Assembly (NCBI RefSeq): GCF_963921235.1
Contig: NC_086103.1
Location: 24,738,001 to 24,802,000 of the forward strand
DNA length: 64,000 nucleotides
Direction of reading: 5' to 3'
Origin: Mobula hypostoma
Lineage: Eukaryota
Numbering within the stretch: the stretch's first letter is position 1; every line of letters begins with the position of its first letter. The position numbers were made by a program, and so were the translations under genes. Positions 653-62,700 of the stretch are shown one piece after another. The notes beneath the pieces are model-generated. The model ran no database searches and was not told the origin of the DNA. It worked only from the letters and a program-made list of their open reading frames with translations.

Positions 653-27615
<26,963 letters not shown>

Positions 27616-38459: not shown

Positions 38460-38770
38460 ATTTCCGGAATGAATTAAGAACTTTTGGTGAATCATGACGC
38501 ATGACGTAACTCATAGAGACGGACGTGACGTCAGCGCGTCAGACTCCGGACCCGGCGAGGAGGAGGTAGAAGTGGAACAGTGAAGAAGAAATGTCTGATC
38601 TGTTCGTGAAACCAGGTAAAGTGAGAGAAAAGCGGTCACTGGCGAATGGACGGAGTTAAAGCTGGCGTAAGTGGGGGGGGGGTGGTGAGCGTTGAGAAGT
38701 GTCGGGCATGCAGGCGCTCCGTCTACGTGGCGTTCGATTGTGCTCAGCACCGCTTCATGACGTAATGGTA
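38460..38770 (+). promoter_or_regulatory. SRA1 CpG-rich promoter with CRE/ATF site cluster
   Basis: TTCCGGAA 38462; TGACGCA 38495; TGACGTAA 38502; perfect CRE TGACGTCA 38526-38533; CGTCA 38537; TGACGTAA 38758. Confidence 0.7.
38591..38615 (+). CDS. SRA1: SRA1 exon 1 coding part (MSDLFVKPG)
   Basis: 25 nt, CAG|gtaaag donor; matches the SRAP N-terminus MxxLYVKPG. Confidence 0.88.
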
Positions 38771-41700
38771 TCCCGGGAAACGCGCACAATACTGGAGGAA
38801 CTCCGGAGGGTCCCGGTCCGAAAGTCGACTGTTTATTCTCTCCATGGATGCTGTTTGACTTGCTGAGTCCCCTCAGCGTTTTGTGTGTGTTGCTCAAAGT
38901 TGCCAGCATTCTTGTGTTTATGGTATCCCGGTTCCGGGAGGAGGGTTGGGAGCAAAGTTCAAAGTAAATTTATTATCAATGTACTATACACCACCCTAAA
39001 ATTATTTTTCTTGCGGGTAATTCACAGTAAATTCAAAGAAACATAATAGAATCAAGGAAAATCGCACACAGCAAGGTGGAAAGTCAAACTGCAAATACAA
39101 AAAGAAAACAACAATAGATGAGCAATAAATAAGGGGTATAGATATGGAAAATGCAAACGGGCCCTTTCCTCTGAAATTGGATGTGACTACAACTAGAGGC
39201 ATGGGTTAAGCGTGAAAGGTGTGTTTAAGGGGAACATGAGGAGGAACTTCTTCACCCAGTGGTGAAAGTGTGGGACAAGCTGTCAGCGGATGCAGGGTCG
39301 ATTCCAACATTTGACAGAAATTTATCTGGGCACATAGATGGGAGGGGTATGGAGGGCTTTGGTCCAGTTGAGGTCAATGGGACTACACAGATTAATTGTT
39401 CAACACAGACTAGATGGGCCAAAGGGCCTGTGTCTGTGCTGCAGTCTTCTATCTGAACGTGAGATCCTTGAAAGTGAGACCATACTGAGAACAGTTCATT
39501 GTTGGGATGAGTGAGGTTATACTCTCTGTTTCTAGAACCTGATTGTTAAAGGGTAATAACTGTTCCTGAACCTGGTGGTGTGGGTCCTGAGGGTCCTGTA
39601 CCTCCTATCTGATGGCAACAGTACTAAGAGAGCATAGGCTGGATGGTGAGAGTCCTTGATGGATGCTACTTTCCTGCAACAAACTCCTTATAGAGGTGTT
39701 CAAAGGTGGGGGGGGGGCAGCAGGTGGGCTTTACTCTTAATGAACTGTGCTGTACTCACTACTTTTTGTAGGCTTTCTATTCAAGGGTATTGGTGTTTTC
39801 ATACCAGGCTGTTATGCAACCACTCAGGATACTCTTCACCATATATAGAAGTCTGTCAAAGTTTTAAATGAAATGCTGAATCTTCAAGAACTTTTAAAAT
39901 AGAGGTGCTGCCATGTTTTCTTTGTAATGTCACTTACAAGGGGACCCAGAACAGATCCTCTGAAGATGATAATGCTGAGGAATGTAAAATTACTGACCAA
40001 CTCCATCTCTGATCCCCAAATGACTGTTTTATGGACCTTTGGTTTCTTCCTCCTGTAATCAATAATCAGCTCCACGGTCTTGCTGACATTGAGTAAGAGG
40101 TAGTTGTGGCACCATCCAGCCAGATTTCCAATCTCTTTCCTATATGCTGATTTGTCAGCAGGGATTGTTGCTGTAGAAATGAAGGATAAACGATCAACTT
40201 TATTTACATGTACAAACCCCATTTCCAGAAAAGTTGGGATATTTTCCAAAATGCAATAAAAACAAAAATCTGTGATATGTTAATTCACGTGAACCTTTAC
40301 TTAACTGACAAAAGTACAAAGAAAAGATTTTCAATAGTTTTACTGACCAACTTAATTGTATTTTGTAAACATACACAAACTTAGAATTTGATGGCTGCAA
40401 CACACTCAACAAAAGTTGGGACAGAGGCATGTTTACCATTGTGTTACATCACCTTTCCTTTTAATAACACTTTTTAATAATTTTGGAACTGAGGATACAA
40501 ATTGTAGTAGATTTGCAATTGGACATTTTGTCCATTCTTTCTTGATATAAGACTTCAGCTGCTCAACAGTCCGTGGTCTCCGTTGTCTGATTCTCCTCTT
40601 CATGATGCGCCATAGGAGATAAGCAGCAGGCCAGTCAAGCACACGCACTCTGTGTCTACAAAGCCACGTTGTTGTAGCCTGTGCAGAATGTGGTCTGGCA
40701 TCGTCCTGCTGAAATAAGCATGGAAGTTCCGGGAAGAGACGTCGCCTTGATGGCAACATATGTCTCTCTAAAATCCTAATATACGCTTCAGAGTCAATGG
40801 TACCTTCACATACATGCAACTCACCCACGCTGTGGGCACTGATGCACCCCCGTACCATCACAGATGCTGGCTTTTGCACCTTTCGCTGATAACAATCTGG
40901 ATGGTCGTTTTCATCTTTGGCACAGAGAACTTGATGCCCATTTTTTCCGAAAACTAGCTGAAATGTGGACTCACCTGACCACAGCTCACGGTTCCACAGT
41001 CTTTCGGTCCATCTGAGATGAGCTCGGGCCCAGAGAACTCGCCGGCGTTTCAGCATAGAGTTGATGTATGGCTTCCTCCTTGTGTAATACAGTTTCAAGT
41101 TGCGTTTCTGGATGCAGCGACGGACTGTTGAGTGACAATGGTTTTCCGAAGTAGTCCCGAGCCCAGGTGGCTATAATTGTCACAGTAGCGTGACGGTTTC
41201 TTAGGCAGTGCCACCTGAGGGCTCGAAGATCACGCGCATTCAACAGTGGTTCCCGACCTTGCCCTTTACGCACTGAGATATCTCTGAATTCTCTGAATCT
41301 TTTCACAATAATATGTACTGTAGATGTTGAAAGACCTAAATTCTCTGCAATCTTGCATTGAGAAATGTTCCTTTTGAACTGACTAACAACTCTCTCACGA
41401 ATTTTGGCACAAAGGGGTGAGCCATGACCCATCCTTGCTTACAAAAACTGAGCCTTTGATGGACGCTACTTTTATACCCAGTCATGATACCTCACCTGCT
41501 ACCAATTAGCCTGCTTAATGTGGAGTCTTCCAAACCGGTGTTACTTGAATATTCTGTGCACTTTTCAATCTTGATTTAACTCTGTCCTAACTTTTGTTGA
41601 GTGTGTTGCAGCCATCAAATTCTAAATTTGTGTATGTTTACAAAATACGATTAAGTTGGTCAGTAAAACTATTGAAAATCTTTTCTCTGTACTTTTGTCA

Positions 41701-44700
41701 GTTAAATAAAGGTTCACGTGAATTAACATATCACAGATTTTTGTTTTATTGCATTTTGGAAAATATCCCAACTTCGCTGGAAATGGGGTTTGTATATAAT
41801 GCATTGGGTACTTACTGTGCTGTGTTGGTGCGGCATTCAACAAAAGCAACATTGAACAATTATAAGAAAGAATTATAAAAAAGTTAGATGTTAAAGTATG
41901 GAAAGTGAGTAAATGTGTATAAATACTATTATGTATTCACAATATTAGATTATGAGAACACTCAGTCCTCCTTTATAGTCATTTAGAAATGCATACATGC
42001 ATTAAGGAATGATGCAATGTTTCTCACAGATATCACAGAAAACAGGACAAACCAAAGACTAACACTGACAGAACCACATAATTATAACATATAGTTACAG
42101 CAGTGCAAAGCAATACCATATTTTGATGAAGAACAAGCCATGGGCACGGTAAATAAAGTCTCAAAAGTCCCAGAGTCAATCGACTCCCGAGTCCCTGATA
42201 AGCAGGCGGCAAAAGGGAGAAACTCCCTGCCATAAACCTCCAGGCACCGTCAACTTGCCAATGCCTTGGAAGCAGCCGACACTGAGTCCATCCGTCCGAA
42301 AACTTTGAGCTTCCAACCAGCCTCCCGAGCGCCTTCGACCTCGCCCCGGCCGCTGAAACACGCAAAGCCGAGAATTTCGGGGCCTTCTACTCCGGAGATT
42401 CCGGTTACCACACAGTAGCAGCGGCAGCGAAGCGGGCATTTCAGAAGCATTATAAAAAGTGGTTTAAAGTGTTTTTGCTGTCCAGTGCAATGACTGAGGT
42501 AATAGATAAGGGGGATGGGGAGGGTGGCTAAATAGAATGGTTGATCAGATTAACTGCCTGGGGGGGAGAAACTTTTATATGATGTGAAGTTTTTGTTTTA
42601 ATAGCCATAGCACTTAGCAGAACGAAGCTTTTGGAAAAGGCAATTTGCTGGGTGGGTAGTGTCCACAGTGATTTTGACTGTCCACTTCTTTGTCCTGGAC
42701 ATGTACAAGTCCTGCAGTGATGGTAGACTACAATGACCTTCTCAGCTGATTTGACAGATCATTCTATTTCTTCTATATTGTGAGAGTTTGCTGATAAACC
42801 AGACAGTAATGTTTTGACCGGAAGAAACTCCAATCTACAAATCGGTGGATGTGGATGAATCAAAGAGAGGGAGAGCAGACTTTGTTTGCCCCCCCTCACC
42901 ACCGCCCCCCATTTTGTGAATTCTGAACTGATTTTTGCTCTGGGATAATCTAATCAGAGCAGTTGAATGTGGGCATAAGGAACTTTAGCTAATGACCTGC
43001 TAAACCTGAGACCATTCTCGGATGACTAACTATTTATTATGTAAGTGGCAGACGTACCGGAAAAGTGATCTGTAGTCTCACTAGATTCAGTGTCTAGGTC
43101 ACCTAGTTTTGACAGATTTGAACCAGCCAGAGCTGAAAGGAACAAGGTCAGGGGACAGAAACCATAGACATTAGTTGTAGCCCTGGACTAGAGCCAGTAA
43201 GAAGGTGACCCAGGTAGGTCAGGTGATATTGGGCCAGTGGGATGGAGATTCATCAGTTCAACTGATAAGGAATACTACAAGTGTCAGGAGCTCCAAATAT
43301 GTTATGGTAATGAGAGGACAACCATCGTGGACGAGGAGGACCCCACTGACACATGGAGATCGGGACCACAAGAAATGCCTGACCAGTGTAGACTGCTTTC
43401 TCAGGTAATACCTTTTCTCTTCATTGACTGTTCATGAAGGATCAAGGAATTCTAGCGGGAGTGCGTTTTAGATGAGACCATACATACAGATTACTTGTCG
43501 GTAAATACAGATTCTCTCTATGCCTCCCTGATCATTATTACAAGGAGTGATTCTTATAACAGATGTTAGGTTCTTTATGATGACAGTTTATATTTGCATC
43601 AGTATGTTCTGCAAAAGATGGAATTTTACTGATTGTCTCAAGAAGTACATCCTCTACCGAGCCTTTTTGCTAATGAAGGAGATACATGAGGTCCACATGA
43701 GGTCTTGAGAAATATTGATGCCCAGGAAGGTGAATGTTGACATGTTACTAACTGTAGGCTTGTTGCTGATCAGTGAGTAGAGAGGAGACATTTCTCCTGA
43801 AGTCAATATGGATCTCCATGGTCTTGAGGGTTTTTAGCTCCAAGTTGTTGTGATTGTGTTGTGAGGTACTGGAGCCTTATAGGTCCCACACCACCAGGTT
43901 TAGAAACAGTTACTATCCTTGTTGCATTGTGTTGTTTTAATCCAAGGTCCTTTGAGATATCAGGATAGAGGCACAAAACCTGTGGTTCCACGATCATTTT
44001 ATTAAGAATTAATAGAACAAGGGAAATTTGAATGAACAGTGATAGAGGTCTTCTAAGTGAAGGGAAAGCTAAGATTAAATGAGGCTGCTTTGTGTTTAGC
44101 CATTTTATACCCATAGAGATGAGGAAAATTCCATTCATATTTGTAGATTAGAGTCAACCAATGAGAAAGCAGTTATTCAATATTGCAGTACCAAGTTAAC
44201 CAATGAGAAAACACATTCAATAATGCAGAACAAAGGGGCTTCTAGAGCTTTCCAGAATTATATTTTGTATAGCCATTGGAGACATATTAAACTGTTATAT
44301 GGATATAAGAGCTACTTAAAATGCAAGCAGATAATTGTTAAACTGCAAAGAAAATAACAATTAAACAGTCTACTCTAAGAATTAAATAGTCAGATCCAAC
44401 AAACCCCCTTTGACTATGACTATTCTAAATCACACATTTAGGATCATTACACCTGAAAATTCAGACGCAGAAAAACTTACGGTATATATGTTATGTACAA
44501 TTTAATCAAAAAAAATGACGGGTTATGAAATATCAAAGGATACATATTCTTCAACGTAAATATAGGATTATGGTTTGGCAGATTTGTAGACATTCTTATA
44601 CAAATTTGAACTATTAATGATTGCCTCTAAGCAAGTAAAAAAAGATATAGCTTATGATAAAACAGAAGTTTGTACATGTAGGCAAAATTGGCAAAAATAT

Positions 44701-47700
44701 AGCAACAATTAATATTGGAATAAACTTCATAATGTTCAGTAGTTATCAACTTGAAGTCTTCTGGCTGATTAGTGATTTGCTCACTGTAGCCCAGCAATGG
44801 GGGTATTTTGGCCAAGAGACCAATAGGTTTCAATATGTGCATTTAATGTCAGAGAAATGTATACAATATACATCCTGAACTTATTTTTCTTCTCAGACAT
44901 CCACGAAAACAGAGGAGTGCCCCAAAAAATGAATGACAATTAAAACATTAGAACCTCAAAGCCCTCCACCAACTTCCCCTTGCACGCACAAGCAGCAAGG
45001 CAATGACCCTCACCCACCCCCATCAGGAAAAAAGCATCAGCACCCTCCACCGAGCACTCAAGCGTGCAGCAAAGCATCAATAATAACACAGACTTGCAGT
45101 ACCCCAAAAACTATATTTTCACCTGACAATAAGGGAAAACGAGGCGACCCCGTTTCACAGCGAGAGGAGAGGTATAACCAACAACTCGCTGATTTATGAT
45201 GTTAAAAGTCTGGTGCGTCGCTTTTTCCGAGCTCTGTCCCTGGAGAGTCAGGGCCAAAAAGGTGCAGCCCCCGATAGCTGACCCTCCGCTCCCAATGTTA
45301 CGTGTTCTCCTACGAGGCTTCACTTGGGAGCACCAGCCTAGAATCGACAGGTCTCCGGACCCACAAAATCCTGAACCCTGAAGGCGCACTTGTCTTCCAG
45401 GCCGCGTCCTTGGATATCAAAAAGTGGCCGATCGTGAGGCCCTGAGAGTGGGTCCCATTCCACAGAGAACCGCAGTCAGAGTGTAACTCCAGGTCAGGGT
45501 CTTCAAGAGAACCCCTCCCCCCCCAAAACTCTGAAAAGGGAAAAAATAGATATCAAAGATAGAAATAAAGCTGTTTCGGAAGAAGCAAACAAACGCGTCG
45601 CCATTTAGCGCCACCTTAACTGCTAGCATATTAACCACAGCGCTTGGTGACCTCCTTGAATACCACTTTAGCTTGCATGCAGTAAGTATCCACTTACTTT
45701 TACCTTCTACTTTCATTGCCAAGTTGGTAATTAACAGCACTTGATGCTACCAATGATTGCATATGTGTTTTCTTAATGAGGACCCACTCACCAGGAATCA
45801 GGGAGATTCCTCCTTTTGCTGGGTCTTCCTAAGCGGCAGAAACCTGTGAGAAGCTTGGGTTAGTTTCACACGATAGGTAAATAAACTGTTTGCCATAATG
45901 TGTATACCAGTCTCCCTGAGATTGAGGGCTTCTGGTAGTGACATAGGGCGCCCTGTTACCATCTGGAGTGGACATATGTTTTCTTGTTTGAGGCTGCTCT
46001 GATGCGACGTAAGACCATAGGGAAGAGCTGTAGGCTATGGTATGCCTTCCTCGTGATAGTTGGTCATTGATGGATGGTTCCATTCATTGTTTGCCTTGGC
46101 CTGATGCTTCTGGGTGATGTGGACAATCGAAAGGCCATTCAATGTTCATCAGTCGACAGAAGTCCTGACAAATACTCCCAGTGAAATATGTTCCTTGGTC
46201 AGTCAATGTGACATGGGAATTCCCATCTAGGAATATGGTCCTTAATCAGAGATTTTGCTGTGTGTGTGTCAGTAGCTTTCCTTGCCATAATCGCTTCCAC
46301 CCATCTTGAATACCTTTCCACGACTACCAGTATAGAAACATAGAAAACCTACAGCACAATACAGACCCTTTGGCCCACAATGCTGTGCCGAACATCTACA
46401 GGTCGACCTTCACTAATCCAACTACCTGTAATCTGGTTCCTTCGATAATCCGGCACTGATTATGCTTAATGTGATCCTTCTGTAATTTGGCATTTTCACT
46501 AATCCAGCACTCCTCAGGTCCCAATGGTGCCATATTAGTGAAGGTCAACCTGTACTTACTTTAGAAATGACCTAGGGTTACCATAGCCCTCTATTTTTCT
46601 AAGCTCCATGTACCTATCCAGGAGTCTTTTAAAAGACCCTATCGTATTCGCCTCCACCACAGTCACTGGCAGCCCATTCCACGCATTCACCACTCTGCGT
46701 TTTAAAAAAAAACAATTTACCCCTGACATCTCCTCTGTACCTGCTTCGAAGCACCTTAAAACTGTGCACTCTCATGATAGCCATTTCAGCCCTGGGAAGA
46801 AGCCTCTGACTATCCACACAATCAATGCCTCTCATTATCTTATACACCACTTTTAGGTCACCTGTCATCCTTCGTCGCTCCAAGGAGAAAAGGCCAAGTT
46901 CACTCAACCTATTCTCATAAGGCATACTCCCCAATCCAGGTGACATCCTTGTAAATCTCCTCTGCACCCTTTCTATAGTTTCCGCATCCTTCCTGTTGTA
47001 AGGTGACCAGAACTGAGCATCCGTGTATCCTTGACACTTTGGGGGGAAAAAAAATGTAGTCCACTTGTAAATGTATTCATTTCCCCAGTATTAATTTTGG
47101 GGTGGCTTTTACATTTTAATATGGCAACTTTCTGACAACAGTTGTATGATATCCAGAAACTCTTGTACTAGTTGACCATTCTTGGTTGGAGTTCTTAGAG
47201 CTGTAAGAAATCCTCTGTCTCCATAAATTTCCAAAATTATGACAACTCCTGCCAACTTACGGGCTTTAATCAGAGTTTTTAGCTCTGTCTGTTACACAGA
47301 GGTGCCAGGAGCCATGCTTCCTCATGTCAGCATTCTAGTTTCAGAAATAACTGCCCATTCAGCCATTCAAATTCTCCCCAATCACAGGGGAGTCATCAGT
47401 ATGTATGAACATAGAATTCTACAACTTCCGGTAATTCCCTCCCCCTCCCTTCCCCTATCCCTATGTCACTCTGCCCCCTCCCCCAGCTGCCTACCTCCTC
47501 CCTCTTGGTTCCGCCTCCATCTACTACCCATTGTGTTTTCCCCTATTCTTTCTTCACCTTTCCTGCCTATCACCTCCCTGCTTCCCCTCCCCCACCCCTT
47601 TATCTTTCCCCTGACTGTTTTTTCTCCTGGAACCTACCAGCCTTCTCCTTCCCACCTTCCCCCCACCTTCTTTATAGGGCCTCTGCCCCTTCCCTCTACA

Positions 47701-50700
47701 GTCCTGACGAAGGGTTCTGGCCCGAAATGTTGACCGATCTTTTCCACGGATGCTGCCCGACCTGCTGAGTTCCTCCAGCGTGTTGTGAGTGTTGCTTTGA
47801 CCCCAGCATCTGCAGATTATTTTGTGTTTAGTCATCAGTATACAGTATGCAGAGTAACGACCGACAGGATGCTCTTGGTATCCATGGTCTTAAATTAAGA
47901 CAGTTTTCATGTGTTTCTCGTTGAGATACAGGGTAAATGGTCTACCTCAGGGGTCCCCAACCTTTTTTGCACTGCGGACCGGCTGATCCGGGGGAGGGGG
48001 GGTAGGGTTGTCAACAGACAAGAGTAGCAGTCAAATACTTTGAGCTTACCCCGAAAAAGACTACAATAACCATGAAGCCTTGCGCGAGCACCAGTGCACA
48101 TGCGTGACTAGCGAATGCGTGTTTGGGCCGATTTTTCTCAACAAATCGTTTTTGGCAATTCTGTTCGGGAGGGGGGTTAATCACGACCGGAATATAGGTG
48201 ATAAGGTGCTAGTACACTCGATTTCATTTCTAGAAGGGTTTATCTAATGAATTTAACATTAAACACACAGCGCATATTTTCCTCGCATGAATATAGTGAT
48301 AAGTCAAGGGAGGGCAGGGGAGCTTGAAGTAAGTGTGGAACAAACTTCCAGTAGAAGTGGTAGAGGCAGGTTCCATATTATCATTTAAAGAAAAATTGGA
48401 TAGCTATATGGACAGGAAAGGAACAGAGGGTTATGGACTGAATGCAGGTCAGGGGGACTAGGTGAGAGTAGCGTTCGGCTCGGACTAGAAGGGCAGAGAT
48501 GGCCAGTTTCTATGCTGTGAATGTTATATGGTTATATAAGTCACTTATAATTCAATAGCATCATTTTAAGTAACGTTTGGATATTAAGCACACAGCACAT
48601 ATTTTCCCCGTATGAACATATAAAATCATTGCAACGCACCAATATCGCTGAATCGGGGAGCTCTAGGCTTGTTTCCCTGCAACAAGACGGTCCTATCAAT
48701 GGGTGATGGGAGACAGCGATACTTGAAGGGGTTTCTTTATGTCCACTCTATTCCGCAATTTAGTTCTCGTTGCATTCATTGCAGAGATACGTTGGAAATG
48801 GAAGCAACGTTTTCAGTGCTTTCGTGGCTATCTCAGGATAGTTAGCCTTGACTTTGATCCAGAATGCCGGCAGAGATGTTATGTCAAACATACTTTTCAG
48901 CCCACCCTCATTTGCAAGCTCGAGGAGTTGATCTCCTTCCCACGCTGACATGGATGACGCATGGGTAATGACCTCGCATGCATAATGGCCTCGCATGCAT
49001 TCAAGCTCAACAGTGGGCGTGACAGGGAATGAGGAAAGGTGCAGCTGACTCATATCGCCAAATCATATCGTTTCCTCGCGGCCTGGTAGCTCCTGCTTTG
49101 CGGCCCGGTACCGGTCCGCGGCCGGTGATTGGGGACCGCTGGTCTACCTGTCTTAGGATTCTTAATTCAGGTACGGTAAACAAAGTCGTATTGAGAGTTT
49201 GAAATACTTTCAGTTGCTCTTCATTAAGAGTCAGAGGGTTGTCTGAGCACTTACTATACTTCAGCAGATTGTTGAGTGGTTGTGCAATAGTTGATAGGTT
49301 GTCGCTCTGCCCCTCTACCAGACGACTTTAGGTTCAGACCAAGGGAATAATTGTCAAACACAGTTTACTTAAAATTACATACTGTTTATTAACAAGCTTG
49401 CGTCTCAGTTGATATTACAGAGCCCCACTCAATAGAGCCTGGAAACCTGGAATCAAGTGAGCCTTCAGCACTCTCTGGGGCTGCTTGTTAAACATTCATT
49501 ATCACATACGTACTCTGATCATTGCCAGCCACCCTTGATTAGAGTTTATGCAAAGCAGCTGTCTCATGCAACAAGCACTCCTTTGTTCCTTGCATCCATC
49601 CCATGGTTAGCAGATCCCATGGTTATCTTGCAACATTATTCACATAGTGTGACTAATCAAGCTGCAAATGTCAGTCAGGTTTTAGCCCTTTTAGTTCTGT
49701 AGATAATTCCTCAGGTCTGTCACTAGCTTATCAATACTGATGAACAATAGTTTCATCCTCAGACCTGCGTCTCTTCACTCCCTTGGTCTCTATTGAAGCA
49801 AGCTGTGACAGCTGTCAATCTTACTGTTTCAAAAAAAGCTTGCCTGACAAATAGTTGGAAGTCATTGAAGAAGGATAGACAAAGGAGAATCATTTGATGT
49901 TGTGTACTTAGATTTTCAGAAGGCCTTTGATGAGGTACCACACATGAGGCTGCTTAACAAGTTCTGAGTCCATGATATTACGGGAACGATTCTAGCATGG
50001 ATAAAGCAGTGATTGATTGGCAGGGGGCAAAGAGTGGGGAGAAAAAGAGAGTCTTTTCTGATTAGCTGCAGAGGACTAGTGGTGTTCCTTAGAGGCCTGC
50101 ATTGGGACTGGTTCTTTGGAATTCTTTGCCACAGTCAGCTGTGGAGGCCAAGTCTTTATGTATATTTTAGGCTAAGGTTGATAGATTCTTAATTGGTCAA
50201 GGCATGAAGGGATACGGTGGGGAAGGCAGGAGATTGGGTCTGAGAGGATCAGCTGTGATGAAATGGTTGAGTAGACTCGGTGGACCAAATGGCCTAATTC
50301 TGCTCTGAATCTTAAGGTCCTCACTGATGTCAATAGGGGGCTGCTGTCCATGTCATGTCAATCCTGTAATTCCTCAGAATTCAGATGGTGTTGCTGCCTG
50401 GGAGGACTGTCAATTCTCCAGAGTTCAGATGGTGGCTCTGTCTGTTTGATGTAGGCTGAATCTCTGGGCAAAGCTTCAGAAGTAGGTGTTTGCCAGGGTG
50501 GAACACCAGCAGTAGCATCACTGGAAGCGTCACCAGCAGAACTTCTAGGAGGATTGCTCACTTGAAGTCATGGTGAGCTATTCCACATGTGTTTTAGTTT
50601 ACTTCTGAGCTCTGCACAGTGCACTTCAATTGAATTACCGTCTTGTTCTTTTGCTCATTCAGTTAATGCAAGGAGTTGCTCCTTAGACTTCTTACTGTCG

Positions 50701-53700
50701 TTATCATGCTATTTTTGTAGTTTATCACAAGTTTTGCATTTCTTTTGATTAGTAAAAGACTTTACTTATCCCATTAACTCTTTCACTCACTCACAGATTC
50801 AATCAAACCAACCACGCTCTCTTATCTCCAAATCAGTAACACATTTTTCTTTAGATTGAGGACACGCAATCCTCTTTTATTGTCATTTAGTAATGCATGC
50901 ATTAAGAAATGATACAATGTTCCTCCAGTGTGATATCACAGAAGCACAAGGCAGACCAAGACTGAAAAACTGACAAAAACACATAATTATAACATATAGT
51001 TACAACAGTGCAAGCAATACCGTAATTTGATAGAAGAACAGACCATGGGCACAGTAAAAAAAGAAGTCTCAAAGTCTCTCGAAAGTCCCAACATCTCACG
51101 TAGACGGTAGATTGTTATGCGAGCAAACTAGATTGTAACCAAATAGGTTACAACCAAATAGATTGCAACTGTTTTATCTTTAAAATAACAATGTACTGTC
51201 CTCAATCCTAATTTCTATCTGATATTTGAAGCTGGGACCCTTTTTCTCTTTGACAACGAAGAAATCCCTTTTGTTGTACACTAAAAATTCTACTTTTGTC
51301 TTTGATTGTTCCAAGTCCTAAACTTTGATATCCTGCCAACTTGGCCACTTGTTGGATTCTAATGTTTTAATCTAAGATTCTTTCAGAAGTCAGGAAAGGG
51401 GCACAAAATTTGCCGTTTCACAATCATTTTAAAAGTTGATAGAATAAAGGAATGTTGAGGTCTACTAAGTGCAGGGAAAGCTGAGATTAAGATGGCACTG
51501 CTTTGTGTTTAGATATTTTATACCCATAGAGATGAGGAAACTTCCATTCAAATTTGTAGATAAGAGTTAATCAATGAGAAAACACTTCTTCAAATCTGCA
51601 GGACAAACAAGCTTCAAGAGTTTTCCACTATAGCCACTAGAGGCATGTTAAACTGTAATATGCACATAAGAACTACTTAATGTACAAGCAGATGATTAAT
51701 TATTAAACTGCAAGAAAATAATTAAACAGTCTAATCTAGGAATTAAGCAGTCAGATTCAACACCCTTCAACCACCTGACTCCTGAACCAGAGTGGATAAC
51801 CTCAACACTGAACTGATTCATAGAAACATAGAAACATAGAAAATAGGTGCAGGAGTAGGCCATTCGGCCCTTCGAGCCTGCACCGCCATTTATTATGATC
51901 ATGGCTGATCATCCAACTCAGAACCCCGCCCCAGCCTTCCCTCCATACCCCCTGACCCCTGTAGCCACAAGGGCCATATCTAACTCCCTCTTAAACATAG
52001 CCAATGAACTGGCCTCAACAGTTTCCTGTGGCAGAGAATTCCACAGATTCACCACTCTCTGTGTGAAGAAGTTTTTCCTAATCTCGGGCCTAAAAGGCTT
52101 CCCCTCTATCCTCAAACTGTGACCCCTCGTTCTGGACTTCCCCAACATCGGGAACAATCTTCCTGCATCCAGCCTGTCCAATCCCTTTAGGATCTTATAC
52201 GTTTCAATCAGATCCCCCCTCAATCTTCTAAATTCCAACGAGTACAAGCCCAGTTCATCCAGTCTTTCTTCATATGAAAGTCCTGCCATCCCAGGAATCA
52301 ATCTGGTGAACCTTCTTTGTACTGCCTCTATGGCAAAGATGTCTTTCCTCAGATTAGGGGACCAAAACTGCACACAATACTCCAGGTGTGGTCTCACCAA
52401 GGCCTTGTACAACTGCAATAGTACCTCCCTGCTCCTGTACTCGAATCCTCTCGCTATAAATGCCAGCATACCATTTGCCTTTTTCACCGCCTGCTGTACC
52501 TGCATGCCCACTTTCAATGACTGGTGTATAATGACACCCAGGTCTCGTTGCACCTCCCCTTTTCCTAATCGGCCACCATTCAGATAATAATCTGTTTTCC
52601 TATTTTTGCCACCAAAGTGGATAACTTCACATTTATCCACATTAAATTGCATCTGCCATGAGTTTGCCCACTCACCCAACCTATCCAAGTCACCCTGCAT
52701 CCTCTTAGCATCCTCCTCACTGCTAACACTGCCACCCAGCTTCGTGTCATCCGCAAACTTGGAGATGCTGCATTTAATTCCCTCATCCAATTCATTAATA
52801 TATATTGTAAACAACTGGGGTCCCAGCACTGAGCCTTGCGGTACCCCACTAGTCACCCCCTGCCATTCTGAAAAGGTCCCGTTTATTCCCACTCTTTGCT
52901 TCCTGTCTGCTAACCAATTCTCCACCCACACCAATACCTTACCCCCAATACCGTGTGCTTTAAGTTTGCACACTAATCTCCTGTGTGGGACCTTGTCAAA
53001 AACCTTTTGAAAATCCAAATATACCACATCCACTGGTTCTCCCCTATCCACTCTACTAGTTACATCCTCAAAAAATTCTATGAGATTCGTCAGACATGAT
53101 TTTCCTTTCACAAATCCATGCTGACTTTGTCCGATCATTTCACCGCTTTCCAAATGTGCTGTTATCACATCCTTGATAACTGACTCCAGCAGTTTCCCCA
53201 CCACCGACGTTAGGCTAACCGGTCTATAATTCCCCGGTTTCTCTCTCCCTCCTTTTTTAAAAAGTGGGGTTACATTAGCCACCCTCCAATCCTCAGGAAC
53301 TAGTCCAGAATCTAATGAGTTTTGAAAAATTATCACTAATGCATCCACTATTTCTTGGGCTACTTCCTTAAGCACTCTAGGATGCAGACCATCTGGCCCT
53401 GGGGATTTATCTGCCTTCAATCCCTTCAATTTACCTAACACCACTTCCCTACTAACATGTATTTCACTCAGTTCCTCCATCTCACTGGACCCTCTGTCCC
53501 TTACTATTTCTGGAAGATTATTTATGTCCTCCTTAGTGAAGACAGAACCAAAGTAATTATTCAATTGGTCTGCCATGTCCTTGCTCCCCATAATTAATTC
53601 ACCTGTTTCTGTCTGCAGGGGACCTACATTTGTCTTTACCAGTCTTTTCCTTTTTACATATCTATAAAAGCTTTTACAGTCCGTTTTTATGTTCCCCGCC

Positions 53701-56700
53701 AGTTTTCTCTCATAATCTTTTTTCCCCTTCCTAATTAAGCCCTTTGTCCTCCTCTGCTGAACTCTGAATTTCTCCCAGTCCTCAGGTGAGCCACTTTCTC
53801 TGGCTAATTTGTATGCTACTTCTTTGGAATTGATACTATCCCTAATTTCTCTTGTCAGCCACGGGTGCACTACCTTCCTTGATTTATTCTTTTGCCAAAC
53901 TGGGATGAACAATTGTTGTAGTTCATCCATGCAACCTTTAAATGCTTGCCATTGCATATCCACCGTCAATCCTTTAAGTGTCATTTGCCAGTCTATCTTA
54001 GCTAATTCACGTCTCATACCTTCAAAGGTACCCCTCTTTAAGTTCAGAACCTTTGTTTCTGAATTAACTATCTCACTCTCCATCTTAATGAAGAATTCCA
54101 CCATATTATGGTCACTCTTACCCAAGGGGCCTCTCACGACAAGATCGCTAATTAACCCTTCCTCATTGCTCAAAACCCAGTCCAGAATAGCCTGCTCTCT
54201 AGTTGGTTCCTCAACATGTTGGTTCAAAAAACCATCCCGCATACATTCCAAGAAATCCTCTTCCTCAGCACCTTTACCAATTTGGTTCACCCAGTCTACA
54301 TGTAAATTGAAGTCACCCATTATAACTGCTGTTCCCTTATTGCACACATTTCTAATTTCCTGTTTAATACCATCTCCGACCTCACTACTACTGTTAGGTG
54401 GCCTGTACACAACTCCCACCAGCGTCTTCTGCCCCTTAGTGTTACGCAGCTCTACCCATATCGATTCCACATCTTCCCAGCTTATGTCCTTCCTTTCTAT
54501 TGCGTTAATCTCTTCTTTAACCAGCAACGCCACCCCACCTCCCCTTCCTTCATGTCTATCCCTCCTGAATATTGAATATCCCTGAACGTTGAGCTCCCAT
54601 CCCTGGTCACCCTGGAGCCATGTCTCTGTGATCCCAACTATATCATAATCATTAATAACAATCTGCACTTTCAATTCATCCACCTTATTACGAATGCTCC
54701 TTGCAGTGACACATAAAGCCTTCAGGCGCTCTTTTACAACTCTCTTAGCCCTTTTTAATGCTTGCCCTGGATTTGTCGGCCTGCCACTTTTACTTTTCTC
54801 CTTTGTACTTTTTGCTTCTACGCTCACTTTACACCCCTCTGTCTCTCTGCACTGGTTCCCATCCCTCTGTTGTGAACTAACCTCCTCACGCCTAGCCTCT
54901 TTAATTTGATTCCCACCCCCCAACCACGGGCTATGGAGTGACTTTTAAGGACTGTACAGTTCATGTTCACAGTATTATTTATTGTATTTGCACAGTTTGT
55001 CATCTTTTGCACATTGGTTGGTTGTCAGTCTTTGTGTAGCTTTTTATTGATTCCATTGAATTTCTCTGTTCTGTGAATGCCTACAAGAAAATGAATCTTG
55101 GGTTAGTATATGTTGACATATTGGTACTTTGATTATGAATTTACTTTGAACACTTGCCTCTCTATTTCCTGGTGATAATTTGATTCATCACCTCTGGTGA
55201 TCAGTCCAGTGACAACAGTGTTAATTGTCTGCAAACTTATCAGTTTAATAGATGGGTCGCTGGAGATGCAGTCATTGGTGTGTAGAGAAAATAAAGCAGG
55301 AGAGAACTCACCATGTGGCACACCAGTGCTGATTGAACAGGATGTGCCGATGTGCTTTCTTAGTCTCCTATACTGGCTCCTATCGCAGAGGGAAGAATCA
55401 ATAAATATATAAAATAATGTTTATAAAAATAAACATGGTGCAAAGAGTAGTTACAGTGATGCTAGAAAGTTTCTGAATCCTGTCGAATTTTCTGTATTTT
55501 TGTATAAATATAACCTAAAATGTAATTAGATCTTCATGTAAGTCCTAAAACCAAATAAAGCAAACCCAATTAAATAAATAACACAAAAAATTATACTTGT
55601 TCATTTACTGAGGGAAAATGATCCAATACTACATGTATTTGTTGGAAAAAGTATGCGAACTTCTGGGTTAATGCCTTCTACAAAAACTATTTGGAGTCGG
55701 GTGTTGCATTCAATGAGATAAGATTGGAGGTGTGGGTTGTAGAGGTGTCCTGCCCTATTAAAAAAAACTACACACAGTCAGTTTACTACAGCGCCTGGTC
55801 TTTTCAAGAACGATGCTTATGTGCACCGTGCCTCGATCAAAACAACTTTCAGAGGACCTTAGTATATGAATTATAGCGGTGCGTGAACCTGGAAAAGCAT
55901 TTCTAAAGACCTAAGTGTTCATCAGTCCACAGTAAGAGAAATTATCTACAAATGGAGGAAACTCCCAAGGAGTGGGCATCCTGCAAAGATCACACCAAGA
56001 GCACAAGGAGGTGAAAAAGAACCCAAGGGTAACAGCAAAAGAACCTGCAGAAATCTCTAAAACTTGCTAAAGTCTCTGTTCGTGTGTCCAGTATAAGAAA
56101 AACACTGAACAAGAATGGCGTTCATGGATTGGTGCTCTTCAAAAAAAAAAAATTGCTGAATGTCCTAAGTTTGCAAAAGACCACCTGGATGTTCCACAAC
56201 ACTTCTGGGACAATATTCTGTGGACGGATGAGACAAAAGTTGAACTTTTTGTCAAAAATGCACATTGCTATGTTTGGAGAATAAAGGGCACTGCACACCA
56301 ACACCAAAGCCTCATTCCAACTGTGAAGCATTGGGGAAGGAGCATCATGGTCTGGGGCTGCTTACTGCCTCAGGGCCTGGACAGCTTGTGATCGTTGAGG
56401 GAACAATTAATTCAAAATTTTATCAGGACATTTTACGAGAGAATGACAGGGTAGCAATCCATCACCTGAAGCTTAATAGAAGTTGGATAATGCAACAAGA
56501 CAATGATCTGAACGACAAGAGTAAATCAACAACAGAATGTTTTAAAAAGAAGAAAGTTTGTGTTTTGGAATGGATGAGTCAAAGTCCTGACCTTAATCCT
56601 ATAGAAATGTTGTGGAAGGACCTGAAGCAAGCAGTTCATACAAGAAAACTCACCAACATCCTAGAGTTGAAGCAGTTTTGTAAGGAGGAATGGCCTAAAA

Positions 56701-59700
56701 TTCCTCCAAACCAGTGTGCAGGACTGATCAACAGTTAACAGAAACGCGTGGTTGAAGTTATTTGCTGTACAAGGGGATCATACTTGTTACTGAGAGCAAA
56801 GGTTCACATACTTTTTCAAACAAATAGATGTAATAGTAGATCATTTTTCTCTAAGTAAATGAGCAATATAATGTTTTTCATATTGTTTATTTAATTAGGT
56901 TCTCTTTATTTAGTTTTAGGACTTGTGTGAAGATCTGATCACATTTTAGATCATATTTATGCAGAAATAGAGAAAATTATACAGGGTTCACAAGCTTTCT
57001 AGCACCACTGTAAGTTGCTGGGCAAGTATTGAGAAACCTGAACAATTCATTAGGAATTCAAAATCAAATTATTTATAAATTTGAGATTAAAAGTGTACTT
57101 TATATATTATTGTTTCTTTTAAAATAGAAGAAAGCAGGACTGGTCCATTGATGGCAATTAGGGGGTTAAATCGATGAATGAGTTTTACCCTTCATGTGCT
57201 TGTGGGCCTTGGGCAGGAGGTAGAAGCAAGCTGTGTGGATTTGCGGCGGTAAAAGGTAAAAAGCTGTGAAGAGAAGATTTCCTGAACAAATGGAGTGTAT
57301 GATTGTATGGTACAATGGAGTGAGATTGTGGTGCAGAGGGGAGATTAGGAGGTGTCTGAGAGCTCATGTTTGGTCTCTGCGTGATGGAGCATGATTTACG
57401 AGACCACAACATGACCTTTATTGTCAGAGTTGTTTCGTAGTGAAGGAATTCTACAAGTCGACAGGATAGAGCATAAGACACTACATCACAGTAAAGGGCC
57501 CTTCAGTCCATGATGTTAAGCTGAGTTTTTTTTTAATCTTCTCTGAGATCAATCTAATGCTTCCCTCCCACATAGCCCATCATTATTCTATTACCCATTT
57601 GCCTATCCAAGAGTTTCTTAAATGTCTCTAATGTATCTACCTCCACCACTACCTTGGCGGGGTGTTCCACACAACCATCACTCACTGTGGGGGGGGGGGT
57701 GAATTACCTCTGACCTCCCCACACCCCCAACTTTACTTTCCTTCAATCATATTAAAATTACGTCATCTCATACTAGCCATTTCCAGCTTGGAAATAAATC
57801 TCTAGCTATCCACTTGATGTGTTCCACTTATCACATGCATGTCTATCAAGTCACCTTTCATCCTGCTCTCCAAAGAGAAAAGCTCTAGCTCACTCAACCT
57901 ATCCTCATAAGGTATGCTCTCTGATGTAGACAGCATCCTGGTAAATCACCTGTACACCCTCTTAAAGCTTCCACATCCTTCCTATAATGAGGGGACCAGA
58001 GCTGAACACAATATTCCGAAGTGTAATCAGGGTTTTCTGGAGCAGCAGCATTCCCTCACGGCTCTGGAACTCGATCCCTGACTAATGACCAAAACACCAT
58101 ACGCCTTCTTAACCACCCAATCAACTTGTGCTGAAGCTGGGTGATCTATGGACATGGAGCTCAAGAACTCTTTGTTCCTCCAGACTGCTGAGAATTATAC
58201 CAGAGGAATCCTATAGGGAGCCCAGCTCTGGATCTTGTCAGTGTCCTGTTGTAACCTATGACAATATTCTACACTACCAACTTTCCTGGCATCTGCAAAG
58301 TTACTAACTCACCCTTCCACTATCTCATCCAAGACATTTATATAAAAAAAAATCACAAAGAGCTGGGTACTCAGAACAGATCTCTGAGGAACTGCCAGAC
58401 AGAAAATGGTCTGTCTACAACTATCTTCTGCCTTCTGGATGATGATGTGGTAAATTGGATCAACAAATTTGCTGATGATACAAAGATTGGAGGTGTAGTG
58501 GACAGTGAGGAAGATTTTCAGAGCCTGCAGAGGGACTTGGACCAGTTGGAAAAATGGGCTGAAAAATGGCAGATGGAGTTTAATACAGACAAGTGTGAGG
58601 TATTGCACTTTGGAAGGACAAACCAAGGTAGAACATACAGGGTAAATGGTAAGGCACTGAGGAGTGCAGTAGAACAGAAGGATCTGGGAACACAGATACA
58701 AAATTCCCTAAAAGTGGCGTCACAGGAAGATAGGGTCGTAAAGAGAGCTTTTGGTACATTGGCCTTTATTAATCAAAGTATTGAGTATAAGAGCTGGAAT
58801 GTTATGATGAGGTTGTATAAGGCATTGGTGAGGCCTAATATGGAGTATTGTGTTCAGTTTTGGTCACCAAATTACAGGAAGGGTATTAATAGGTTGAAAG
58901 AGTGCAGAGAAGGTTTACAAGGATGTTGCCGGGACTTGAGAAACTCAGTTACAGAGAAAGGTTGAATAGGTTAGGACTTTATTCCCTGGAGCGTAGAAGA
59001 ATGAGGGGAGATTTGATAGAGGTATATAAAATTATGATGGGTATAGATAGAGTGAATGCAAGCAGGCTTTTTCCACTGAGGCAAGGGGAGAAAAAAACCA
59101 GAGGACATGGGTTAAGGGTGAGGGGGGAGAAGTTTAAAGGGAACATTGGGGGGGCTTCTTCACACAGAGAGTGGTGGAAATATGGAATGAGCTGCCAGAC
59201 GAGGTGGTAAATGCGGGTTCTTTTTTAACATTTAAGAATAAATTGGACAAATACATGGATGGGAGGTGTATGGAGGGATATGGTCCGTGTGCAGGTCAGT
59301 GGGACTAGGCAGAAAATAGTTCGGCACAGCCAAGAAGGGCCAAAAGGCCTGTTTCCGTGCTGTAGTTTTTCTATGGTTTCTGTGGTTTCTATGGGGAAGC
59401 AAATTTTGAATCCACAAAGCCAAGTTTCCCTGAATCCCATACCTCCTGACTTTTCTATTGAGCCTGGCATGGGTAACCTTGTCAAATGTCTTACTAAAAT
59501 CCTTACACACTGCTCTGCCTTCACCAGTGTACTTAGTCACATCCTCAAGGAATTCAATTAGGCTCGTGAGGCATTACCTACCCTTCACAAGCCACATGGA
59601 CTATTGCTAACTGGACTGTGCTTCTCTAAGTGTTTGTAAATCCTGTTTCTAAGAATCTTCTCAAATAATTTGTCTACCACTGAAGAAAGATTCAATGATC

Positions 59701-62700
59701 TATGATTCCCAAGGGTTTCCCTGCTCCCTTTGTTTTAGCAAAGGAATAACATTTTTTTTAGATTAGATTAGATTATGAGAACTCCCAGTCCTCTTTTATT
59801 GTCATTTAGAAATGCATACATACATTAAGAAATAATACAATAACATTTTCCACTCTCTAATAATCTGGTACTACTTATGTGGTTAGTGAGGATGAAACGA
59901 TCATTGTCAAAAGCACAGCAGCAATCTCTTCCTTCGCTTCCTAGAGTAACCTAGAGTATATCCAGTCTGGTTCCAGGGACTTATCTACCCTAATGTTTTT
60001 CAAAGGTTTCAGCACGTGTCCAGGATGATATATTAATACAAGTAATGGAGTTAGCAGTAGTTAAGTTGAGAGAAGATAATGTGAAGGGAGGTCTACTTGA
60101 TTTAGGAATTCTGAATGTGGGAGAAGGAGCTGCAGCCTGGGATAAGCATTCTTTCCCAAAAATATGGCAGCAGCAGAAGAAAAGTTAAGATGGGAATGTG
60201 GGGTTGATCCTTCGAGATAAGACTGGTGAAGGTTAGAGAAGATGATGAAAACATCAGGAAAGGCTTGTGATCTGCACCAGCTGTTCATATGACCATCCAC
60301 TACCTGCTCCCATGGTTTCATTTGACCCTCATTAGGTGGGGGGGTGGGGTGCAGAATGGCTAAGCAGGTGCTACACCTTGCCCAAGGGTGAGCTGGAGGC
60401 TAGTGGAGGGAAGGTGCCTTACACCTCCTTTGGTAGAGATGTATCTCCACCCAGCCACCCTCAAATGTAGTTTCAGCAGGCTAATTAAGAGCTGCAGTAC
60501 TGCCAGTAAGTGTATATGTTGTGATCTGAAAGCATAGAGTGGTACAGTGGTGCAGAAGATAGAGCCTCTGCCTCAGCACCAGAGCTCTATCCTGACTTTA
60601 GATGCTGGCCGCATGGGTTTCCCTCAGGTACTCCAGTTTCTTCCCATATCCCAAGGATGTGTGAGTTAATAGGTATTTGGCCTCTGCAAATCTTCATAGT
60701 GTGCTGGTGAGTAGAAGAATATGGGGGAATTTGATGGAGTACTGTGAGCAGTTCTCGTCTCCTTACTTGAGGAAGGATATACTGGCTTTGGAGGCAGTGC
60801 AGAGGAGGTTCACCAGGTTGATTCCAGAGATGAGGGGGTTAGATTATGAGGAGAGAATGAGTCACCTGGGACTGTACTCACTGGAATTCAGAAGGATGAG
60901 AGGAGATCTTATAGAAACATCAAATTATGAAAGGAATAGATAAGATAGAGGCAGGAAAGTTGTTTCCACTGGTAGGTGAGACTAGAACTAGTGTCATAGC
61001 CTCAGGATTTGGGGGAGTAGATTCAGGACGGAGATGAGGAGGAACTGCTTTTCCCAGAGAGTGGTGAATCTGTGGAATTCTCTGCCCAATGAAGCAGTGG
61101 AGGCTACTCAGTAAACATGTTTAAGACAAGGTTCGATAGATTTTTATATAGTAGGGGAATTAAGGGTTATGGGGAAATGGCAGGTAGGTGGAGATGAGTC
61201 CAAGGCTCGATCAGCCATGATCTTATTGAATGATGGAGCAGGCTCGATGGGCCAGATAGCCTACTCCTACTCCGATTTCTTATGTTCTTATGTAAGGGCC
61301 ATCTTTCTTTGACTATGAAGAGTAGCTAGCGCATCAGAAAGTAGTGCAAAAAGTTCTTTTTTTTTCATCCCAGAGTGGTTCTCAACAAGAACCCTCTTTG
61401 AGATGATGCAGACAGTAAGGACTGCTCATCACATTGATGGATTTGGAGTTGCATATACACCCGATGTAGAAAGGTAAATAGATTTTCTTCCCTGAAGGAT
61501 ATTAGTGAATTAGGTGGATTCTGCTAGTTCCATGAGGACTATTAATTGGTACCAAATTGGTGTCCAAGTTTTTTGGAAGAACTGATGACCAAGTTGCTGT
61601 AAAAATAGCTATACAGGGAGCTCATTTAAAGGAATTGAGAACTTACTGTAATGGCGAATGATCTTGGAAGTACTAAGCACTACTGTCCTCCTTAGTAATT
61701 GAAAATAGTTTGTGACATATATCTATGTATAATTGTACTCAATTAAGTTCTTGTAAAGCATACATCAATTTCCTCTCTAATCACCGAACAAGTAGAAAAA
61801 TCAATTACTGTTGCACAGAAGTATACAATTTTGAAGAATGATTTTCATTCACTTTAAGGAGCAAGACGTTCTTGTGAAAGATTTGAAAAATTGGAAAAGA
61901 AACAATTTTGCGAAGAGCAACACACAAAATGCTGGAAGAACTCAGCAGATCAGACAGCATCAGGCCTGGACTGGAAGGGAAGAGGGAGGAAGCCAGGATA
62001 ATTAGTGGGGGGTGGGGGGAATTTTGAAAAGACCTGTATATTTGTGCGAATATGCAAAACTTTTAAGCTGTTCATTTCAGTTTTAAAATAGTTCTTAAAA
62101 TATTCTTTTATTGTATGAAACATTAATAGTGATAAAACATACATTAAACTATTTTGTTTGAATTTTTTTGTGTGGTGTTATATATCACCTTAGGATGACT
62201 TGCTTAACTTTGTGTTGTTTTAAATCAGGAAATCAAGAGCGAGGCTGGAATGATCCTCCTCAGTTTTCATATGGTTTGCAGACTCGAGCACAAATTGGTC
62301 AAAAGAAACCATTTCTCACAAAGAGAGTAATAGCACCTCAGATGGATACAGCACCAAAAGGTGAGCATCAATTATTTGCTGCAAATTCTGCCAAAGATTT
62401 GGAACCTTTAGAAAAAATGTACTTTTATGTCAAATTGTGATAATTATGAATTATTTTTGTATAATCATGATTTCCCATTTGAGTCTGTGTTTCCCAGCTT
62501 CTACAACTATTTGGATTTTTATTCGGATTACAACAGCCGAAAATGTTCTGTTACTGGGTATCCTCAGTATAAAAAGGCTTTAATTTTTAAATAAATGTGT
62601 AACTATTATTTCTATTCACTTCACTGCTCCAATCAATAGTGATCAGGCAGCTCCTGCATATGCTAATTTTTAGCTTGACTTTTGGAGGCACAGAACAATA

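What the first reader, a model, noticed from the sequence alone, without database searches (positions are those of the whole stretch)
43920..51762. Hidden two-LTR endogenous retrovirus, apparently env-less, with tRNA-Ser-like PBS in SRA1 intron 1
Seen: paired LTRs with TGTTG...CAACA ends, PBS, PPT and 4-bp flanks (TCCT/CCCT). In order are a possible gag start (about 50774), RT thumb/connection (49150-49300 and 47842-47940, split by the hAT), RNase H and integrase remnants. After removing insertions only about 0.4 kb separates the integrase end from the PPT; it holds a short hydrophobic stretch ([16 protein letters not shown]...) and no recognisable env. Established: RT-RH-IN order, these RH/IN motifs and a 4-bp TSD fit class I ERVs. 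Inference: an old, possibly uncatalogued chondrichthyan ERV lineage, antisense to SRA1. It is barely visible in the ORF track.
Basis: partly seen in the sequence, partly recalled or inferred. Interest (0 to 1): 0.7.

Follow-up and report, generated by a model that had tools for sequence, protein, structure and literature searches.

The report
Old gutted retrovirus copy, envelope deleted
This is a dead, internally deleted copy of an old fish-type retrovirus family with over 80 other copies read in this genome; many of them still carry the envelope gene this copy lost, and the family's large shared deletions keep the protein reading frame, which likely helped the shortened copies spread using enzymes borrowed from full-length relatives.

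Summary
The provirus is real. It has two LTRs (85.5% alike, K2P 0.16), a tRNA-Ser(AGA) primer site, a PPT and a 4-bp target duplication, and it lies antisense in SRA1 intron 1. Its integrase groups with teleost ERVs beside the walleye epsilonretroviruses, not with Gypsy (AU p=0.003). It is not an env-less lineage. The proposed gag ATG is probably CpG decay. Most copies also lack capsid, nucleocapsid and protease (24 of 25 lack protease), and many lack the RT palm, through precise shared joints. All 5 large shared gag-pol joints are in frame, against 7 of 17 single-copy deletions (p=0.03), while the env joint is out of frame. A shared 4-bp frameshift in integrase argues against strict selection. 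Best reading: a non-autonomous class I family that spread by trans-complementation, like HERV-H deleted forms and IAP 1Δ1. The junction is shared with four other species labels. A sequence look-up of earlier scan notes found no match.

The parts
51763..51766 (-). 5' copy of the 4-bp target-site duplication (3 of 4 match to the 3' copy)
51350..51762 (-). 5' LTR, 413 bp, TG...CA; TATA-like box near 51522
51330..51347 (-). primer-binding site for tRNA-Ser(AGA), 15 of 18
50851..51111 (.). nested short repeat, also at about 41993-42158; not part of the ERV
50318..50850 (-). 5' gag stub, decayed; start codon not located
49833..50317 (.). nested repeat fragments (CR1/SINE-like; label from recall)
49714..49832 (-). 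end of gag stub and gag-to-RT joint region; CA, NC, protease and RT N-terminus are missing
49300..49713 (-). nested solo-LTR-like repeat of another family (223 candidates, best 87%)
49142..49299 (-). RT-palm deletion joint (in frame, shared) and RT thumb
47948..49141 (.). nested hAT-like DNA element with terminal inverted repeats and 8-bp TSD
47830..47947 (-). RT connection piece ending at the shared tether deletion
47406..47829 (.). nested SINE-like repeat with target duplication
47080..47405 (-). RNase H remnant, class I type, with a private ~48-bp deletion
47018..47079 (-). start of integrase core, after a private ~470-bp deletion that removes the RNase H end and the integrase HHCC domain
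46337..47017 (.). nested CR1-like 3' fragment holding a 158-bp inverted-repeat element (46397-46554)
45675..46336 (-). integrase core and C-terminal domain, frameshifted
44821..45619 (.). nested LINE-like tail, high copy
44678..44820 (-). env leader and signal peptide (ATG at 44730)
44412..44668 (-). end of env membrane anchor, cytoplasmic tail and 3' UTR; SU and TM ectodomain (~1.1 kb) deleted
44404..44411 (-). polypurine tract
43920..44401 (-). 3' LTR, 482 bp
43916..43919 (-). 3' copy of the target-site duplication
38591..38615 (+). host SRA1 coding exon 1 (context)
62229..62360 (+). host SRA1 exon 2 (context)

Best explanation
The element is a dead, internally deleted copy of an old epsilon-like (class I) endogenous retrovirus family whose parent had gag, pro, pol and a gamma-type env, and shortened genomes like this one likely spread in one old burst by being packaged, reverse-transcribed and integrated with proteins from full-length relatives. 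Shown: the family, the parent's gene pieces scattered over decayed copies, the shared deletion joints, the star-shaped tree and the shared orthologous site. Inferred: (1) the deletions arose during reverse transcription at 1-3 bp microhomologies and were shuffled by recombination between co-packaged RNAs, since they occur in many combinations; (2) the kept LTRs, PBS, leader and PPT let helper proteins act in trans; (3) the large gag-pol deletions were likely filtered to stay in frame, because translating the Gag-stub/RNase H/integrase frame favoured that RNA in cis (step 3 is about 45% likely); (4) env was under no such filter. After insertion the copy took seven nested elements and private deletions, and it has no coding capacity now.
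For: Family size: 1885 LTR, 561 integrase, 508 3'-region and 369 env candidates, 40 scored each. Placement: the family (100/100) sits in a teleost ERV clade (100/99), next to the WDSV/WEHV group (93/92), inside an epsilon-like clade (95/95); holding family with Gypsy is rejected, p-AU 0.003. The RT tree agrees on the clade. MLVIN_C hits above cut-off in copy L020, RNase_H PF00075 just below cut-off in L010. Env: TM present in 14 of 40, SU part only in 5, signal joined to tail or LTR in 14, undetermined 4, no signal 3. The TM profile hits filovirus GP2 and syncytin-1 (E 4e-11, 1e-5). Parent pieces: protease in L015, L034 and L171, capsid-region and zinc-finger pieces in L013 and L029. Deletions: of 25 family loci picked by a 15-mer, 24 lack protease and 16 lack the RT palm. 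Joints in frame: gag-RT type a 22 of 26, type b 6 of 7, RT palm 25 of 25, tether 21 of 22, integrase linker 7 of 8 (after dropping 2 mis-assigned rows from type a and 1 from RT palm). Single-copy deletions are in frame in 7 of 17 (judged by eye); Fisher p=0.03. L019 keeps a 203-codon open frame across two joints. The env joint gives an immediate stop in 4 of 5 true short copies found. Burst: mean pairwise identity 78.0 +/- 1.9%, 1 of 49 inner branches starred; LTR-pair K2P 0.12-0.24 in 13 pairs. Contigs of organisms B, E, F and H bridge the 3' junction.
Against: A 4-bp frameshifting deletion in the integrase core is shared by about 15 of 52 copies, including this one, and a 5-bp one by about 5 of 57. 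With them and the four small in-frame shared indels the tally is 9 of 11 (p=0.04). Only five large joints were available, and microhomology may favour in-frame joints by itself. Env-deleted copies do not cluster on the tree (9 changes against 10.5 shuffled; 96 of 500 as low), so a single origin is not shown. No single copy holding all genes was seen, so the helper is inferred. Window fragments alone give only sub-cut-off rve hits. The sample is about 80 of several hundred copies and is biased to good BLAST scores.
Confidence: 0.8

Rival explanations
1. Same family and same trans-mobilisation, but no selection on frame: a few deletion hot spots at microhomologies happen to be in frame.
For: Joints carry 1-3 bp microhomology. 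A shared out-of-frame 4-bp lesion exists. Deletion states are not clustered on the tree. One singleton (L012) reuses the right edge of the integrase-linker joint.
Against: 5 of 5 large shared joints are in frame against 7 of 17 singletons. The env joint is out of frame. The joints stop at the RNase H start and spare the HHCC motif.
Confidence: 0.4
2. A primordially env-less retroviral lineage that moved as an autonomous intracellular retrotransposon.
For: This copy has only about 475 bp between integrase and 3' LTR, and 14 of 40 copies show the same lack.
Against: 14 of 40 copies keep TM. The window keeps the signal peptide and anchor tail of that env, and it lacks protease and the RT active site.
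Confidence: 0.03
3. The shortened copies are reverse-transcribed spliced subgenomic RNAs.
For: The joints are precise and recur.
Against: None of the four deleted segments inspected begins with GT and ends with AG. Copies have two LTRs and a 4-bp TSD.
Confidence: 0.04
4. A Ty3/Gypsy LTR retrotransposon.
For: The RT of this clade has an RLTIDY-type motif. Automatic names of relatives include 'Gypsy integrase-like' and 'transposon 412'.
Against: AU p=0.003. MLVIN_C, a tether followed by a second RNase H, and a gamma-type env are present. The relative P0151 scores 386 bits with MLV/XMRV RT against 176 with Ty3.
Confidence: 0.02

Closest known systems
Epsilon-like class I ERVs of fishes (clade Mu, Xu et al. 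2018, PMC6001957, passages read; CmiERV lineages II/III, Han 2015, PMC4422223, part 1 of 2 read)
   Same: Grouping near WDSV/WEHV, RT-tether-RNase H-IN order, MLV-type integrase C-terminus. Xu et al. state that cartilaginous-fish retroviruses are spread through the tree by host switching, which fits nesting among teleost elements.
   Different: LTR divergence 0.12-0.24 against 0.024-0.033 for CmiERVs. Most copies are shared deletion derivatives.
Unnamed teleost ERV clade (database proteins from Serrasalmus, Alosa, Coilia, Astyanax and Danio, and clusters holding Gadus and Cyprinus proteins)
   Same: Nearest relatives; one clade at 100/99.
   Different: Those records hold long open Pol or Gag-Pol frames. 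Seven other class I elements of this genome fall outside the clade in the tree, and none of 20 such loci matches the family at DNA level.
Mouse IAP 1Δ1 (review PMC6466679, passages read; Saito et al. 2008 not held, cited through the review)
   Same: A non-autonomous ERV subtype whose gag-pol deletion gives an in-frame fusion and which out-spreads its helper; the review says the fusion protein works in cis.
   Different: IAP is class II, young and active, with one 1.9-kb deletion. Here it is class I and long dead, with at least five large in-frame joints in mosaic combinations, env often kept, and no functional test.
HERV-H RTVLH2-like deleted forms (PMC6629862, passages read)
   Same: A class I family dominated by copies with shared pol and env deletions, with a minority of fuller copies.
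   Different: Here capsid and protease are lost too and the primer is tRNA-Ser. The passages read do not mention frame-keeping ('in-frame' 0 hits).
Gamma-type Env of anamniote ERVs (bioRxiv 10.1101/2021.11.23.469661, passages read)
   Same: Heptad, ISD, CX6CC and anchor; found in 6 cartilaginous fishes; similarity to filovirus GP2 is noted there.
   Different: Env subtype (C.1-C.9) was not assigned here; supplements of the preprint were closed.

Membership tests
Class I epsilon-like ERV | Pol groups with gamma/epsilon retroviruses, apart from Gypsy and foamy viruses | tested here: met
   References are unnamed viral contigs labelled by length and ORF layout from recall (L120 layout). SnRV, ZFERV, SSSV and lokiretroviruses were not identified in the set.
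Class I epsilon-like ERV | RT, tether, then a second RNase H, then integrase | tested here: met
   Fuller copies and relatives; the tether is deleted in the window copy
Class I epsilon-like ERV | GPY/F-type MLV integrase C-terminal domain | tested here: met
   MLVIN_C 42.5 bits against cut-off 29.2 in L020; the window copy alone has no hit
Class I epsilon-like ERV | Gamma-type env with ISD and CX6CC | tested here: met
   In other copies; TLV_coat only below cut-off; ectodomain deleted in the window copy
Class I epsilon-like ERV | TG...CA LTRs, tRNA PBS, PPT, 4-bp TSD (TSD length recalled as typical) | tested here: met
Genus Epsilonretrovirus in the strict sense | Accessory ORFs (cyclin, orf B, orf C) and membership of the WDSV/WEHV clade | tested here: not met
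   Family lies outside the WDSV/WEHV clade in both trees; env tail runs straight to the PPT
Ty3/Gypsy | Groups with Gypsy; single RNase H without a tether | tested here: not met
   p-AU 0.003
Env-less ERV lineage | No env in any member | tested here: not met
   TM in 14 of 40; 369 env candidates
IAP 1Δ1-like non-autonomous ERV | Shared gag-pol deletion with in-frame fusion | tested here: met
IAP 1Δ1-like non-autonomous ERV | Fusion frame acts in cis to raise mobility | not testable with these tools
   Only the frame statistics bear on it; a shared 4-bp lesion argues against a need for intact integrase

The most novel reading that the evidence does not exclude
An ancient class I retrovirus in a cartilaginous fish evolved, independently of mouse IAP 1Δ1 and through at least five separate deletions, a streamlined parasite genome that drops capsid, protease and polymerase but keeps one continuous Gag-stub/RNase H/integrase frame. 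Translation in cis would then be a general rule for successful defective ERVs, readable from fossils alone.
Probability: 0.4. Interest if true: 0.55.

Novelty: new member of a known kind. Interest (0 to 1): 0.33.

Why it matters
The copy itself is ordinary genome debris in a known class. The family adds three things. It is an old, datable marker shared by several related species. It is one more case of a cartilaginous-fish ERV nested among teleost elements. It is also a natural data set for asking why defective ERVs out-spread their helpers. If the frame bias holds genome-wide, the cis-translation effect known from one mouse family would extend to class I viruses and deep time.

Tried and rejected
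Pfam on window fragments gave only sub-cut-off rve hits. A word-based protein search with one integrase fragment found nothing. No tRNA gene or Rfam match lies in the window. I first thought all copies lacked gag-pro (note); some searches showed copies with protease and capsid pieces, so I dropped that. Splicing as the source of the joints was rejected. The regex for the env joint gave 5 false rows of 10 and the 9-bp joint 6 of 32; these were left out. Deletion lengths against single reference copies are unreliable for frame because the references carry their own indels, so frame was read from codons across the joint. A calendar age was not set. Han's assumed 2.2e-10 per site per year would give about 370 Myr for K=0.163, which I do not trust; 1e-9 would give about 80 Myr. 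No RNA holder was listed. Organisms C, D and G showed no listed contig bridging the junction; the tables were cut, so this is no evidence of absence. Saito 2008 and Magiorkinis 2012 were not held. Literature searches (listings and abstract starts only, except the papers named) found no description of this family. No supplements were read; ERV lists in the supplements of PMC6001957 and the env preprint, and Repbase or Dfam, may already hold it.
Full report
Observation. On the minus strand, 51350-51762 and 43920-44401 align end to end as LTRs of 413 and 482 bp, with 348 of 407 columns identical (K2P 0.163) and TGTTG...CAACA ends. The flanks match at 3 of 4 bases. Among 20 fetched LTRs, 4 proved to be 5' or 3' LTRs of proviruses and were set aside; 9 of the remaining 16 match at 3 or more of 4 flank bases (binomial p 1e-7), while 5-base matching is at chance. 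Two bases after the 5' LTR lies an 18-mer matching the genome's own tRNA-Ser(AGA) end plus CCA at 15 of 18; copy L064 matches 17 of 18. SRA1 exon 1 (38591-38615) and exon 2 (62229-62360) are on the plus strand, so the element is antisense in intron 1. Of 7,843 bp, about 4,260 are seven nested repeats and about 3,585 are native.

Family. DNA searches of the genome gave 1885 LTR, 561 integrase and 508 3'-region candidates, of which 40 each were scored, the best at 70-90% identity. I read 60 ten-kilobase loci (40 chosen by integrase, 20 by env) and 30 loci chosen by a 15-mer, of which 25 are family and 3 repeat ten-kilobase loci. Fifty-two integrase rows form a star: mean identity 78.0%, 1 of 49 inner branches starred. 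Thirteen LTR pairs give K2P 0.12-0.24 (one pair has only 55 columns). This points to one old burst. Contigs of four other organism labels (B, E, F, H) bridge the 3' LTR-flank junction; those of E, F and H differ by about 7-9%. Earlier scan notes call the host a ray; I did not test that.

Placement. A profile of integrase pieces found its best relatives among teleost proteins and unnamed records. In a careful integrase tree of 53 rows the family (100/100) nests in that teleost clade (100/99). The clade sits next to the group holding the walleye viruses (93/92), inside an epsilon-like clade (95/95). Forcing the family with Gypsy costs 99 log units, p-AU 0.003. The three window fragments fall with the family. 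An RT tree keeps the same clade (100) but places it as sister to all other class I rows (92), so the exact position is open. Viral references are unnamed contigs that I labelled from recall. Copy L020 hits MLVIN_C above cut-off.

Env. In fuller copies it is followed by an SU with a CWVC motif, a basic cleavage site, a heptad, an ISD, CX6CC and an anchor. A profile of the TM pieces hits filovirus GP2 and syncytin-1, as reported for gamma-type Env (bioRxiv 2021.11.23.469661, passages); Pfam TLV_coat stays below cut-off. Of 40 integrase-selected loci, 14 hold TM, 5 part of SU only, 14 go from signal to tail or LTR, 4 are undetermined and 3 lack the signal. The window jumps from the signal to the anchor end across about 1.13 kb, at a joint shared with at least six other copies. 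In 4 of 5 true short copies found by motif the joint gives an immediate stop.

Gag-pol deletions. Protease and RT N-terminus survive in L015, L034 and L171, and capsid-region and zinc-finger pieces in L013 and L029, all decayed. In the 15-mer sample 24 of 25 lack protease and 16 of 25 lack the RT palm. Five large joints recur: two gag-to-RT joints, the RT palm, the tether (two variants) and the linker before the integrase HHCC. A survey against two reference copies found no other long deletion shared by three or more copies in the RT-to-integrase span. Codons read in frame across them in 22 of 26, 6 of 7, 25 of 25, 21 of 22 and 7 of 8 copies (three mis-assigned rows dropped). Seventeen single-copy deletions are in frame in 7 cases (by eye). 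Fisher p is 0.03 for 5 of 5 against 7 of 17. The joints are not GT-AG; they carry 1-3 bp microhomology and occur in many combinations. The window carries the RT-palm joint in frame, the tether joint with a further small deletion, and a private loss of the HHCC region.

Against the frame reading. About 15 of 52 copies, including the window, share a 4-bp deletion in a tandem repeat in the integrase core, and about 5 of 57 share a 5-bp one. Counting all shared indels, 9 of 11 are in frame (p=0.04). Env-deleted copies do not cluster on the tree. Intact integrase was therefore probably not required; if selection acted, it may have been on translation or RNA stability.

Mechanism. Shown: cis signals kept, enzymes lost, joints shared among separate insertions. 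Inferred from general retrovirology: template switches at microhomologies made the deletions, recombination between co-packaged RNAs shuffled them, and full-length relatives supplied Gag and Pol. I put this at 0.8, and selection for the open frame at about 0.45. The closest parallels are IAP 1Δ1, whose in-frame gag-pol fusion acts in cis (PMC6466679, passages), and the deleted HERV-H majority (PMC6629862, passages). Epsilon-like ERVs in cartilaginous fishes and their scatter among other hosts' viruses are already in print (PMC4422223 part 1; PMC6001957 passages; PMC4977317 part 1 of 4; PMC10699275 passages; class I markers from PMC4724089 passages).

Verdict. A real, old, ordinary class I ERV fossil and a new member of a known kind. 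The env-less claim does not hold for the lineage. The in-frame deletion series is the one lead worth a genome-wide count. Interest 0.33.

Noticed in passing
window 51918-54944 (-): A CR1-like LINE with an open 1008-codon frame (endonuclease and RT hits) ends about 100 bp from the 5' LTR; apparently young.
   Followed up: partly
window 40208-41797: Tc1-like transposon with inverted repeats of about 220 bp at 92-97%; another Tc1-like remnant at about 55450-57010.
   Followed up: partly
window 12700-24030 (-) and 38591 (+): Exons of leucyl-tRNA synthetase (label recalled) on the minus strand lie head to head with SRA1; a CpG-rich patch lies at 38501-39000.
   Followed up: no
window 49300-49713: Solo-LTR-like repeat of a second, younger family; two copies lie 9.75 kb apart on contig C71, which suggests a provirus.
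   Followed up: partly
G000 genome-wide: 1235 candidates for the MLV-type integrase C-terminal domain; at least three other class I lineages, one close to a pike element and one to a skate element.
   Followed up: partly
L018 and L020 (contig C62, 54.45-54.55 Mb): Near-duplicate family copies in a local tandem array, with their own deletion running from the env signal into the 3' LTR.
   Followed up: no
P0345 (Danio rerio, 1632 aa) and the P0186 cluster (3937 members): The related teleost clade has long open Gag-Pol frames and an RLTIDY-type RT motif unusual for class I; I could not find a name for this clade.
   Followed up: partly
L070 1087-1830 (+): An intron-free-looking frame resembling a host ER-Golgi protein (label recalled) lies upstream of a class I ERV; possibly a retrocopy.
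   Followed up: no
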